From Escherichia phage PHB11, in sequence record MK524176.1: a stretch of DNA of 64,000 nt; one strand, 5' to 3'. Positions 1,728 to 9,619 of the stretch are shown in pieces. Numbering within the stretch: position 1 is the stretch's first letter; each line of letters opens with the position of its first letter. Below the pieces are notes generated by a model. That model saw only the letters and a list, made by a program, of their open reading frames with translations. It ran no database searches and was not told where the DNA came from. A program made the position numbers and the translations under genes.

Positions 1728-3080
1728 ATGTGGAATCCAATTGTTAATGTAGATATTACATTGAACACCGCAGGAACTACAAGAGAAGGTTTTGGGCTAC
1801 CACTATTTTTAGCTTCAACAGATAACTTTGAAGAAAGAGTCCGTGGTTACACTTCCTTAACTGAAGTTGCTGAAGATTTCGATGAAAATTCTGCTGCATA
1901 TAAGGCTGCTAAACAACTTTGGAGTCAGACTCCTAAAGTAACCCAGCTTTATATTGGTAGACGTGCTATGCAGTACACTGTATCAATTCCTGACTCTGTT
2001 AATGAAAGTACCGATTATTCTTTAACTGTAGCTGTGGGCGGTGGAGTTTCTCAACCATTCCAGTACACTTCACAGTCAAAAGATACTGCTGAGAAGGTGT
2101 TACAGCAGCTTAAAACACAGATTGAAGCTGACCCAACAGTTAAAGATAAGGTCACTGTCAATGTAACTGGTGCTGGCGGTTCAGCCACAATGGTAATCAC
2201 CAAAGCTGGTGTGAACGACTTCGTGAAGGTTACTTCTACAGCACAAACAGTGTCAATTGCAAGTACAACTGCTGACACAGCATCTACTGCTTTGGCAGCT
2301 ATTGAAGCTTATTCAACTGACTGGTATTTCATTGCAGCAGAAGACAGAACTCAACAGTTTGTCTTAGCAATGGCTTCTGAGATTCAAGCTCGCAAGAAGA
2401 TTTTCTTTACAGCTAACTCTGATGTAACAGCACTGCAAGGTACAGAATTAGCCAGTGCAAATGATGTTCCAGCACAACTTGCTAAGAATAAATACACTCG
2501 TACAGTTTGCTTGTGGCATCACACAGCAGCAGAAGACTATCCAGAAATGGCATACATTGCTTATGGTGCTCCATATGATGCAGGTTCAATTGCTTGGGGT
2601 AACGCACAGTTAACTGGTGTAGCTGCTTCTCTACAACCATCTAATCATAGACCTCTGACAAGTATTCAGAAGTCAGCTTTAGATGCACGTCACTGTAACT
2701 TTATTGACCTTGATGGTGGTGTTCCAGTGGTTCGTAGAGGGATTACTTCTGGTGGGGAATGGATTGATATCATCCGTGGTGTTGACTGGTTAGAATCAGA
2801 CCTGAAAACTTCTCTGAGAGACTTGCTAATTAATCAGAAGGGTGGTAAGATTACTTATGATGATACTGGTATTACCCGTATTCGTCAAGTCATTGAAACC
2901 TCTCTACAGAGAGCAGTCAACAGAAACTTCCTGTCATCTTACACAGTTAATGTTCCTAAAGCCTCTCAAGTTGCTTTAGCAGACAAGAAAGCTCGTATCC
3001 TGAAAGATGTTACCTTCTCAGGTATCTTAGCAGGGGCTATCTTGGATGTTGACTTGAAAGGTACAGTGGCTTACGAATAA
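1728..3080 (+). CDS. Putative tail sheath protein
   Basis: 450 aa; position directly upstream of a ~150 aa tube candidate, a frameshifted chaperone pair and the tape measure gene (P2/Mu-like contractile tail order). Confidence 0.5.
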   Translation: MWNPIVNVDITLNTAGTTREGFGLPLFLASTDNFEERVRGYTSLTEVAEDFDENSAAYKAAKQLWSQTPKVTQLYIGRRAMQYTVSIPDSVNESTDYSLTVAVGGGVSQPFQYTSQSKDTAEKVLQQLKTQIEADPTVKDKVTVNVTGAGGSATMVITKAGVNDFVKVTSTAQTVSIASTTADTASTALAAIEAYSTDWYFIAAEDRTQQFVLAMASEIQARKKIFFTANSDVTALQGTELASANDVPAQLAKNKYTRTVCLWHHTAAEDYPEMAYIAYGAPYDAGSIAWGNAQLTGVAASLQPSNHRPLTSIQKSALDARHCNFIDLDGGVPVVRRGITSGGEWIDIIRGVDWLESDLKTSLRDLLINQKGGKITYDDTGITRIRQVIETSLQRAVNRNFLSSYTVNVPKASQVALADKKARILKDVTFSGILAGAILDVDLKGTVAYE

Positions 3081-3095
3081 TAGAGGTAAATTGGA

Positions 3096-3542
3096 ATGGC
3101 TATGTATCAGCAATATTCCCCTAAAGACGTTGTATGTAGCTGGAATGGCATTGCTATTGAAGGCTTTGCTCCAGATTCATTCTTGCGTCTACAGAGAACA
3201 TCACCACTTATTACACCAGTTGTAGGTGCGGGTGGTCAGGTTGCTCTGACAAGAAATGCAGACAAGACAGGTACTATTGAGATTGAGCTAATGCAGACTT
3301 CTCTCTCTAATCAGATGCTTTCTGCAATTCAAGCTAAACAAGACAATATGGAACTTGAAGAAGATATCTCTTCTAACTTCGTAATCTACGACCCATCAGG
3401 CTCTGTTCTGGCAACTGGTATTAATGCTTGGTTGCAGGAACTACCGCAGATTGAACTTGGTCGTGACCAGAACTCTAAGACTTGGATTTTTGGTTGTGAG
3501 AAGCTAGACTACACTTCTACAATTCCAGCGTCAAGTGTTTAA
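3096..3542 (+). CDS. Putative tail tube protein
   Basis: 148 aa, between sheath candidate and chaperone pair; followed by an intrinsic terminator. Confidence 0.45.
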   Translation: MAMYQQYSPKDVVCSWNGIAIEGFAPDSFLRLQRTSPLITPVVGAGGQVALTRNADKTGTIEIELMQTSLSNQMLSAIQAKQDNMELEEDISSNFVIYDPSGSVLATGINAWLQELPQIELGRDQNSKTWIFGCEKLDYTSTIPASSV

Positions 3543-3554
3543 TAAATCCTATAA

Positions 3555-3588
3555 GGGGGAGACTTTAAAAGGTCTTCCCCTTTTTTGT
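3555..3588 (+). terminator. Intrinsic terminator after the tube gene
   Basis: GGGGGAGAC-TTTAAAA-GGTCTTCCCC hairpin followed by a T-run. Confidence 0.6.
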
Positions 3589-3615
3589 TTCTTTTAAAAG
3601 TATTAAGGAATCACA

Positions 3616-4014
3616 ATGAAAACAGAAGCTAGAGTAATTAATGGTAAGAAAGTAAATATCATTCTGCTTGGGGCAAGAGATGGTATTAAGATGTCTATGA
3701 AGTTGGGTAAAATTGTTGTTCCAACTTTTGCACAGATGCTATCAAGTCTGACTGATAAAGATAAGAAAGAAGTTCCAATGGTTCCATTTAAAGAACTTGT
3801 TGAGGCTTGTTTTGACAGAATTGAAGAAATTAACCTTGAAGAAATGGCTACCCTGCTATTTCAAGGGGCAACTGTTGATGACTTCCCACTTAATATTGAT
3901 ACATACTTCCAAGCAAACTATGGCGAATTTATTGATTACTTAGCATTTGCGCTGGAGGCAAACTTCGGAAGTTTTTTCGAAGCAAGCATTTTCAAAAGCC
4001 TAACTTCTCAGTAA
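3616..4014 (+). CDS. Tail assembly chaperone (gpG-like, zero-frame product)
   Basis: 132 aa ORF immediately upstream of the tape measure gene; contains slippery heptamer TTTTTTC near its 3' end. Confidence 0.5.
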   Translation: MKTEARVINGKKVNIILLGARDGIKMSMKLGKIVVPTFAQMLSSLTDKDKKEVPMVPFKELVEACFDRIEEINLEEMATLLFQGATVDDFPLNIDTYFQANYGEFIDYLAFALEANFGSFFEASIFKSLTSQ

Positions 4015-4255
4015 ACATGGGTAACACTCTACAGACACCACTAACTGATGCTGCTGTAGAGGCAACCTATGAAGAAGCAGACGAGATGAAATTTGTGCTT
4101 GCTATTTATGGTATGGAAGGGTGTAAAGAAACACTTGACCAACTCTTTGCTATGACATTCTCTGATTTATTATCATTGAGACAATTTCTTGAAATTCAGA
4201 GGTCGTATAAAGAGGAAATTGCTTACAACGAACTTAGAAGAGCAGGAAAAATGTA

Positions 4256-4256
<1 letters not shown>
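3616..4256 (+). CDS. Predicted G-T-like chaperone fusion made by -1 frameshifting at 3972-3978
   Basis: ORF 4017..4256 is in the -1 frame relative to 3616..4014 and that frame has no stop between the slip site and 4256. Confidence 0.45.
3972..3978 (+). other. Candidate -1 programmed ribosomal frameshift site (slippery heptamer T_TTT_TTC)
   Basis: In-frame X_XXY_YYZ heptamer; the -1 frame is open from 3978 through ORF 4017..4256. Confidence 0.5.

Positions 4257-9619
<5,363 letters not shown>

What the first reader, a model, noticed from the sequence alone, without database searches (positions are those of the whole stretch)
3616..4256. Canonical -1 programmed frameshift in the tail assembly chaperone pair
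The 3616..4014 ORF contains an in-frame slippery heptamer T_TTT_TTC (3972-3978). The -1 frame is open from the slip site into ORF 4017..4256. Both ORFs sit immediately upstream of the tape measure gene, the conserved position for G/GT chaperones.
Basis: partly seen in the sequence, partly recalled or inferred. Interest (0 to 1): 0.4.

Follow-up and report, generated by a model that had tools for sequence, protein, structure and literature searches.

The report
Tail chaperone -1 frameshift, Felix O1-like phage
This is the usual programmed -1 ribosomal frameshift that lets a tailed phage (here a Felix O1-like myovirus) make a short and a long tail-assembly chaperone from one gene; it is real and strongly conserved, but already annotated in close relatives, so it is ordinary.

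Summary
ORF1 (3616-4014) carries T_TTT_TTC at 3972-3978 in its zero frame. The -1 frame is open from 3936 to the stop at 4254-4256, and the pair lies between the tail tube gene and the tape measure gene of a Felixounavirus.

- The heptamer T_TTT_TTY is present in all 61 distinct relatives examined. These form about 22 clades, reach down to about 25% protein identity, and include genomes with 60-66% G+C.
- Every relative has a 76-124 codon -1 extension, which encodes a conserved domain.
- The ATG of ORF2 is not conserved. It is ATA in one close relative, and absent or far downstream in most clades.

The predicted products are a 132-aa G-like chaperone and a 213-aa GT-like fusion.

I found no conserved downstream RNA structure. 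The only candidate stimulator is a Shine-Dalgarno-like GGAGG (3954-3958) 13 nt upstream of the heptamer; its GAGG core is kept in 18 of 22 clades.

The frameshift is already annotated in GenBank for phages Meda and Mordin. It is also stated in the genome papers for the Felix O1-like phages Moogle and Michonne. Verdict: already known, low interest.

The parts
3616..4014 (+). ORF1, the G-like tail assembly chaperone (132 aa). AAGGA ribosome-binding site at 3605-3609.
   Evidence: Pfam Phage_TAC_15 E=5.7e-19 and phrog_1613 'tail assembly chaperone' E=6e-48. Sequence read.
3954..3958 (+). Internal Shine-Dalgarno-like GGAGG (within CTG GAG GCA = Leu-Glu-Ala), 13 nt 5' of the heptamer. Candidate frameshift stimulator (inferred).
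   Evidence: GAGG is at this fixed spacing in 55 of 61 distinct contexts and 18 of 22 clades, against a background GAG share of about 40-44% (binomial p = 3e-4). The review PMC5009743 gives a 9-14 nt spacing for SD stimulators of -1 frameshifting.
3972..3978 (+). Slippery heptamer T_TTT_TTC in the ORF1 zero frame.
   Evidence: Present as T_TTT_TTY in all 17 GenBank relatives with an intact ORF1 and in all 74 IMG/VR loci. H_HH.U_UU.Y motifs are among the efficient ones in E. coli (PMC4066793).
3978..4256 (+). -1 frame extension (92 codons plus stop TAA 4254-4256), read after the slip. The fusion is residues 1-121 of ORF1 plus these 92 residues, 213 aa (GT-like).
   Evidence: Translation. Phage CL1, with one extra T, encodes exactly this 213-aa protein as one ORF. 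The extension peptides align across clades with a conserved C-terminal domain.
3978..4014 (+). Dual-coding overlap (ORF1 C-terminus EASIFKSLTSQ* and -1 frame RSKHFQKPNFSV).
   Evidence: No variable site at 3972-4014 among 25 distinct Felixounavirus sequences. The 33 bases from AAG to AAAA that contain the heptamer are identical in every aligned Ounavirinae sequence except one G-for-A change in Mordin, including phages with 39-48% ORF1 identity.
4017..4256 (+). ORF2 as usually annotated (79 aa; T-like domain). No SD upstream of its ATG.
   Evidence: phrog_4963 'tail assembly chaperone' E=3e-55, no Pfam hit. The ATG is ATA in L030 and absent or displaced in most clades.
4256..6463 (+). Tail tape measure protein gene (context).
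   Evidence: Pfam TMP_3 E=9e-17 and phrog_4036.
3096..3542 (+). Tail tube gene (context). The sheath gene 1728-3080 lies upstream of it.
   Evidence: phrog_280 and Pfam KPP10_Orf10 for the tube; phrog_205 'tail sheath' for the sheath.
3553..3591 (+). Intrinsic terminator-like hairpin plus T-run between the tube gene and ORF1 (context).
   Evidence: 13-bp stem followed by TTTTTGTTT. Annotated as a terminator in Meda and Mordin.

Best explanation
The window comes from a Felix O1-like myovirus (genus Felixounavirus). Genes 3616-4014 and 4017-4256 form one translational unit for the tail assembly chaperones.

Most ribosomes read ORF1 to its stop and make a 132-aa G-like chaperone (Phage_TAC_15 family). 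A minority slip back one base when the two tRNA-Phe sit on UUU_UUC of U_UUU_UUC (3972-3978). They re-pair on UUU_UUU, continue with CGA at 3978, and make a 213-aa GT-like fusion ending at 4254-4256.

By analogy with lambda gpG/gpGT, the shared N-terminal part binds the tape measure protein. The -1-encoded C-terminal domain recruits the tube protein. The fixed low ratio of long to short product is set by the slip efficiency. Neither product stays in the virion.

The slip is probably helped by pairing of the 16S rRNA anti-SD with GGAGG (3954-3958), 13 nt upstream. There is no downstream hairpin or pseudoknot.

Shown here: the sequence anatomy, family membership, conservation of the site, frame and extension, and dispensability of ORF2's ATG. 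Inferred: that the slip is ribosomal, its efficiency, the role of the SD-like element, and the binding partners.
For: 1. Anatomy.

2. Family and gene order.

3. The FF dipeptide is invariant in ORF1 homologues down to 25% identity.

4. T_TTT_TTY is present in all 61 distinct contexts, about 22 clades, including relatives at 60-66% G+C. In the same ORFs only 46% of Phe codons are TTT and 36% of Ser codons end in T, giving 0.17^22 = 7e-18.

5. The -1 extension is 76-124 codons in every relative, while the +1 frame is short and erratic.

6. The extension peptides share a conserved domain across clades. They evolve as coding sequence in the -1 frame: 81-89% amino-acid identity with about 30% synonymous changes against Suspvirus and Mooglevirus.

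7. ORF2's ATG has no SD. It is ATA in the close relative L030. Three clades have no ATG in the extension at all, and in most others the first ATG lies in its second half.

8. Position 7 is C in 67 of 74 loci, which caps the T-run at 6. This fits a ribosomal heptamer rather than selection for a long homopolymer.

9. A GAGG/GGAGG motif sits at fixed 13-nt spacing, inside the 9-14 nt range for -1 stimulators.

10. U_UU.U_UU.C is among the efficient motifs in E. coli.

11. The Felix O1 virion proteome contains gp63, 64, 67, 68 and 69 but not gp65 or gp66, which are the chaperone pair.

12. Meda and Mordin carry the joined CDS, and the Moogle and Michonne papers state the frameshift.
Against: No direct detection of the fusion protein in any Ounavirinae phage was found in the literature searched.

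The 74 IMG/VR loci were retrieved with a peptide pattern that includes [SC]FF. Relatives that lost FF would therefore not have been seen. The GenBank set from tblastn did not have this bias.

In Felixounavirus itself, the ORF1 stop and the ORF2 ATG are only 2 nt apart. Some independent ORF2 translation by coupling therefore cannot be excluded.

Four clades lack the SD-like motif, so it is not essential.
Confidence: 0.9

Rival explanations
1. ORF2 is made only as a free 79-aa protein. Ribosomes that terminate at the ORF1 stop (TAA 4012-4014) re-initiate at ATG 4017. There is no fusion, and the heptamer is just the codons for Ser-Phe-Phe.
For: The stop and the ATG are 2 nt apart. Most GenBank records annotate two separate CDSs.
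Against: There is no SD before the ATG. The ATG is ATA in L030, and it is missing or displaced by tens of codons in most clades, while the -1 frame stays open from the heptamer in all of them. Synonymous choices at the heptamer are fixed in 22 of 22 clades.
Confidence: 0.04
2. The fusion arises from transcriptional slippage. RNA polymerase inserts one extra U on the T6 run, and standard translation of that minority mRNA gives the 213-aa protein.
For: A one-base insertion gives exactly the fusion, as in the CL1 record with T7. A weak hairpin plus T-run was flagged at 3952-3978.
Against: The run is only 6 T in most relatives and is capped by C in 67 of 74 loci. Efficient bacterial slippage is described for runs of about 9 (PMC5009743). 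The run is always in the X_XXY_YYZ register. The upstream hairpin is not conserved, with z near 0 in most clades. The conserved upstream element is SD-like, which acts on ribosomes.
Confidence: 0.05
3. Chance. The heptamer and the open -1 frame are coincidental, and ORF2 is unrelated to ORF1.
For: About 0.1 in-frame heptamers are expected in the overlap from this window alone.
Against: Conservation across about 22 clades and a conserved -1-encoded domain.
Confidence: 0.01

Closest known systems
Phage lambda gpG/gpGT and the conserved tail-assembly frameshift of dsDNA tailed phages (Levin 1993; Xu, Hendrix and Duda 2004, as cited in PMC5009743)
   Same: Two overlapping ORFs lie between the major tail/tube gene and the tape measure gene. 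A -1 slip near the end of the first ORF gives a short and a long product that share an N-terminus. The chaperones are absent from virions. There is no required downstream structure.
   Different: The heptamer is U_UUU_UUC rather than lambda's G_GGA_AAG. The phage is contractile-tailed. The chaperone belongs to Pfam Phage_TAC_15, with no detectable sequence similarity to gpG tested here. A conserved upstream SD-like element is present.
Annotated 'tape measure chaperone frameshift product' of Salmonella phage Meda (MH586731) and Citrobacter phages Mordin, Moogle and Michonne (Ounavirinae)
   Same: Same genes and the same heptamer. For Meda the local sequence is identical.
   Different: Nothing of substance. 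Those are predictions as well, not experiments.
E. coli dnaX -1 frameshift (A_AAA_AAG with an upstream SD-like stimulator and a downstream hairpin)
   Same: An internal SD-like sequence lies within the 9-14 nt range upstream of a heptamer.
   Different: There is no downstream hairpin here. The heptamer differs. The expected efficiency is a few per cent rather than about 50%. This is a resemblance in mechanism only, with no homology.

Membership tests
G/GT-type tail assembly chaperone frameshift (Xu, Hendrix and Duda 2004) | Two ORFs lie directly between the major tail (tube) gene and the tape measure gene, with the second ORF in the -1 (or +1) frame and overlapping the end of the first. | tested here: met
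   Tube 3096-3542, ORF1 3616-4014, -1 frame open 3936-4256, TMP 4256-6463.
G/GT-type tail assembly chaperone frameshift (Xu, Hendrix and Duda 2004) | A slippery sequence in the correct register inside the overlap. | tested here: met
   T_TTT_TTC 3972-3978 in the ORF1 zero frame. It is the only heptamer in the overlap.
G/GT-type tail assembly chaperone frameshift (Xu, Hendrix and Duda 2004) | The slip site and the extension frame are conserved among diverged relatives. | tested here: met
   61 of 61 distinct contexts and 22 of 22 clades. The -1 extension is 76-124 codons in all.
G/GT-type tail assembly chaperone frameshift (Xu, Hendrix and Duda 2004) | Both a short product and a frameshifted fusion are made, in a fixed ratio. 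| not testable with these tools
   Needs a western blot or mass spectrometry of infected cells, or a reporter assay.
G/GT-type tail assembly chaperone frameshift (Xu, Hendrix and Duda 2004) | The products are required for tail assembly but absent from mature virions. | tested here: inconclusive
   The published Felix O1 virion proteome lists gp63, 64, 67, 68 and 69 but not gp65 or gp66. This is consistent with absence, though absence from a top-17 list is weak evidence. The requirement for assembly was not tested.
Pfam PF21822 Phage_TAC_15 | Score above the curated gathering cut-off (22 bits) over most of the model. | tested here: met
   69.3 bits, E=5.7e-19, model positions 1-124 of 127.
dnaX-type SD-stimulated -1 frameshift | A sequence complementary to the 16S anti-SD lies 9-14 nt 5' of the heptamer. 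| tested here: met
   GGAGG 3954-3958, with 13 nt to the heptamer. The GAGG core is conserved in 18 of 22 clades.
dnaX-type SD-stimulated -1 frameshift | Mutating the SD-like element lowers frameshift efficiency. | not testable with these tools
   Needs a reporter assay.
dnaX-type SD-stimulated -1 frameshift | A stimulatory stem-loop lies 5-9 nt 3' of the heptamer. | tested here: not met
   The window's downstream 67 nt folds at -4.4 kcal/mol, z +0.4. RNAalifold gives -1.3 kcal/mol with no covariation. The only hairpin starts 37 nt downstream.

The most novel reading that the evidence does not exclude
The whole Phage_TAC_15 chaperone family uses one fixed recoding cassette. This covers Ounavirinae, Vequintavirinae and many uncultured relatives, including GC-rich ones. 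The cassette is U_UUU_UUY plus a Shine-Dalgarno-like GAGG/GGAGG(UGA) exactly 13 nt upstream, embedded in the invariant peptide L-E-[AV]-N-[FY]-[GS]-[SC]-F-F. In Felixounavirus, the SD-like element rather than any downstream structure would set the G:GT ratio. That would make this a phage example of a purely 5'-stimulated -1 frameshift conserved over deep divergence.
Probability: 0.45. Interest if true: 0.3.

Novelty: already known. Interest (0 to 1): 0.15.

Why it matters
For annotation, most of the roughly 300 public Felixounavirus-like records list two separate 'hypothetical' or 'chaperone' genes and omit the 213-aa fusion. The joined CDS should be added.

Biologically, this is one more instance of a rule known since 1993 and 2004. 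It does show how rigidly the slip site is kept: the same six T's are held even in genomes of 66% G+C. It also offers a clean natural system, with an SD-like element and no 3' structure, for measuring how a 5' stimulator alone tunes a chaperone ratio.

Tried and rejected
**Downstream stimulatory structure.** Single-sequence folds, RNAalifold on 8 Ounavirinae sequences and per-clade folds with shuffles gave nothing conserved. Nothing lies near the site in this window.

**Terminator-like hairpin just upstream of the T-run.** It was flagged but is not conserved.

**Known RNA families.** Rfam gave only a chance-level hit, E 0.94.

**+1 frameshift.** The +1 frame closes within 7 codons.

**Extra constraint on ORF2 synonymous sites.** There is a within-genus diversity trough, but it does not persist at deeper divergence. 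I treat it as local history, not a hidden element. My first version of the test was circular, because the sequences had been selected by the conserved stretch itself, and I discarded it.

**Solved structures and NCBIfam for the fusion.** No matches.

**Literature.** I looked for experimental proof in Felix O1-like or rV5-like phages and found none.

**Not run.** I did not run the large protein-database searches or structure prediction, because the answer did not depend on them.

Full report
**What the window is.** The region 3000-6500 is 95-98% identical at the nucleotide level to about 200 Escherichia, Salmonella and Shigella phages of the genus Felixounavirus (Ounavirinae; Felix O1-like myoviruses). 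The gene order is as follows.
- Tail sheath, 1728-3080: phrog_205; Pfam DUF3383.
- Tail tube, 3096-3542: phrog_280; KPP10_Orf10.
- ORF1, 3616-4014: Pfam Phage_TAC_15, 69 bits, E 5.7e-19; phrog_1613 'tail assembly chaperone'.
- ORF2, 4017-4256: phrog_4963 'tail assembly chaperone'; no Pfam hit.
- Tape measure protein, 4256-6463: Pfam TMP_3; phrog_4036.

**Checking the observation.** ORF1 codons around the site are AGT(3970-3972) TTT(3973-3975) TTC(3976-3978). TTTTTTC at 3972-3978 is therefore a heptamer in the X_XXY_YYZ register.
- The -1 frame is open from 3936 to the TAA at 4254-4256 and includes ORF2. The +1 frame closes after 7 codons.
- After a -1 slip the next codon is CGA at 3978. The product has 121 residues of ORF1 plus 92 residues, 213 aa in total (...EANFGSFF-RSKHFQKPNFSVNMGNT...).
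- Taken alone, the sequence is only suggestive. In-frame X_XXY_YYZ heptamers occur at 0.0038 per codon in the window's long ORFs, so about 0.1 is expected in the 26-codon overlap. This is, however, the only in-frame TTTTTTC in any ORF of at least 100 aa in the window.

**Comparative evidence for the slip site.** I collected 17 GenBank loci through tblastn and blastn hits. I also collected 74 IMG/VR loci found with the ORF1 alignment.
- Together these give 61 distinct sequence contexts. They fall into about 22 clades at 60% identity and reach down to about 25% ORF1 identity. They include Vequintavirinae (CR8, Av-05) and many uncultured phages whose ORF1 is 60-66% G+C.
- Every locus with an intact ORF1 has T_TTT_TTY in the ORF1 zero frame. 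Among the IMG/VR loci, 67 have TTTTTTC and 7 have TTTTTTT.
- The Phe-Phe dipeptide is invariant in the protein alignment.
- Given the peptide [S/C]-F-F, the heptamer also needs the Ser/Cys codon to end in T and the first Phe codon to be TTT. In these same ORFs only 36% of Ser codons end in T and 46% of Phe codons are TTT. That is about 0.17 per independent clade, against 22 of 22 observed.
- One caveat: the IMG/VR search pattern contained [SC]FF, so relatives without FF could not be seen in that set. The tblastn-derived set was not biased in this way.

**Comparative evidence for the extension.**
- The -1 extension from the heptamer is 76-124 codons in every relative, while the +1 frame is short and erratic.
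- The extension peptides align across clades, with a conserved C-terminal domain of the form ...tL.EL...W..slDDl..A...LD....
- Against Suspvirus and Mooglevirus relatives, ORF2 keeps 81-89% amino-acid identity with about 30% synonymous change. This is the same as ORF1 and the tape measure gene, so ORF2 is ordinary coding sequence in the -1 frame.

**ORF2's own start codon is dispensable.**
- In the window the ATG at 4017 lies 2 nt after the ORF1 stop and has no SD-like sequence in the 18 nt before it.
- An otherwise 97%-identical Felixounavirus contig (L030) has ATA there.
- Mooglevirus and Suspvirus records start ORF2 at a different ATG.
- In the Erwinia, Hafnia and Pectobacterium phages, and in most distant clades, the first ATG of the extension lies in its second half. 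Three clades have none at all.
- Some annotators accordingly found no ORF2, for example in phage Tian.
- The extension can therefore only be expressed generally as a fusion.

**Ribosomal or transcriptional slippage.**
- A single extra T gives exactly the fusion. The GenBank record of phage CL1 has T7 and one 213-aa CDS, which is probably a homopolymer error.
- Several features point to the ribosome. The run is only six T's. It is capped by C in 67 of 74 loci. It is always in the heptamer register. The conserved neighbouring element is Shine-Dalgarno-like.
- The review PMC5009743 describes bacterial transcriptional slippage for runs of about nine.
- Sharma et al. (PMC4066793) place H_HH.U_UU.Y heptamers, which include U_UU.U_UU.C, among the efficient motifs in E. 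coli.

**Stimulators.**
- I found no downstream structure. The 67 nt after the site fold at -4.4 kcal/mol (z +0.4).
- The only notable hairpin (4016-4071, z -2.2) begins 37 nt downstream.
- RNAalifold on eight Ounavirinae sequences gives -1.3 kcal/mol with no covariation.
- Rfam has nothing.
- Several distant clades do have strong hairpins right after the heptamer: L065 z -5.9, L078 z -3.2, L066 z -2.9, L079 z -2.8. Stimulators therefore seem to be clade-specific.
- Upstream, the invariant Glu codon of L-E-[A/V]-N is GAG followed by G. This gives GAGG in 55 of 61 contexts and 18 of 22 clades, and GGAGG in 35 of 61. In several clades it extends to GGAGGTGA. It always lies 13 nt before the heptamer.
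- In the same ORFs GAG is only about 40-44% of Glu codons (binomial p = 3e-4 at clade level).
- The spacing falls within the 9-14 nt reported for SD-like stimulators of -1 frameshifting (PMC5009743).
- This is an inference. Four clades (Erwinia Kolesnikvirus, the Hafnia phages, CR8 and L078) use GAA, so the element is not essential.

**Function.** By analogy with lambda gpG/gpGT (summarised in PMC5009743), the short product and the N-terminal part of the fusion would coat the tape measure protein. The -1-encoded domain would recruit the tube protein, and neither would remain in the virion. The Felix O1 virion proteome is consistent with this. It lists gp63 (49 kDa, sheath), gp64 (16 kDa, tube), gp67 (80 kDa, tape measure), gp68 and gp69, but not gp65 or gp66, which are the two chaperone ORFs. 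That paper does not mention a frameshift.

**What is already known.**
- GenBank records of Salmonella phage Meda (Felixounavirus; note 'Tape measure chaperone frameshift product') and Citrobacter phage Mordin (Mooglevirus) carry the joined CDS.
- Most other records, including the Felix O1 RefSeq, list two separate genes.
- I found no experimental demonstration in this phage group.

**Verdict.** It is an already-known, ordinary feature, with interest 0.15. The only mildly new points are the family-wide invariance of U_UUU_UUY and the conserved upstream SD-like element in place of a downstream structure.

Noticed in passing
L004 (Escherichia phage CL1, OK040806) 957-963; equivalent to window 3972-3978: The record has seven T's instead of six, so the two chaperone ORFs are one 213-aa in-frame CDS identical to the predicted frameshift product. 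This is probably a homopolymer sequencing error. If real, the phage would make mostly the long form.
   Followed up: partly
L030 (IMGVR_UViG_3300045988_004167), position equivalent to window 4017-4019: A 97%-identical Felixounavirus contig has ATA instead of the ATG that starts ORF2, with the rest of the -1 frame intact.
   Followed up: yes
window 3553-3591 (+): A strong intrinsic-terminator-like hairpin (13-bp stem plus T-run) lies between the tail tube gene and the chaperone gene. It is annotated as a terminator in Meda and Mordin. It would lower transcription of the chaperone and tape measure genes relative to sheath and tube.
   Followed up: partly
window 3940-4300: Among 25 Felixounavirus sequences, nucleotide diversity drops to 0.000-0.015 from the slip site through ORF2 to the start of the tape measure gene, against 0.04-0.05 on either side. 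Synonymous divergence to other genera is normal there, so this looks like local history rather than a hidden element.
   Followed up: partly
window 7245-7251 (+): An in-frame A_AAG_GGG lies three codons before the stop of ORF 6463-7260, with the -1 frame running into the next gene (7260-7601). It is most likely just that gene's ribosome-binding site at an ATGA-type overlap.
   Followed up: no
L065, L066, L078, L079 (IMG/VR relatives), the 70 nt after the heptamer: Some distant members of the same chaperone family have strong hairpins directly 3' of the heptamer (z -2.8 to -5.9), unlike the window. The stimulators appear to differ between clades.
   Followed up: partly
-1 frame just after the heptamer, window 3978-4000 and relatives: A short motif, R-x-(K/R)-(Y/H)-(W/F)-x-P (RSKHFQKP in the window; RYW.P in many distant clades), is conserved in the -1 frame immediately after the slip site. 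It may explain the very high nucleotide conservation of the overlap.
   Followed up: partly
GenBank GU169904 'Staphylococcus phage SA1' and MG065664 'Campylobacter phage A132': Both records contain DNA about 96% identical to this Felixounavirus tail region. The host labels are implausible, so the records are probably contaminated or mislabelled.
   Followed up: no
L003 (LR597663, Escherichia phage VpaE1_ev78): The product names are offset along the tail module. The tape measure gene is called 'Tail sheath protein' and the two chaperone ORFs are called 'Hc1 head closure' and 'Tc1 tail completion'.
   Followed up: no
L013 (Citrobacter phage BSwM KMM4, OP902293): ORF1 is broken into pieces (89-aa truncated CDS; three tblastn pieces), which suggests indel errors in that record.
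   Followed up: no
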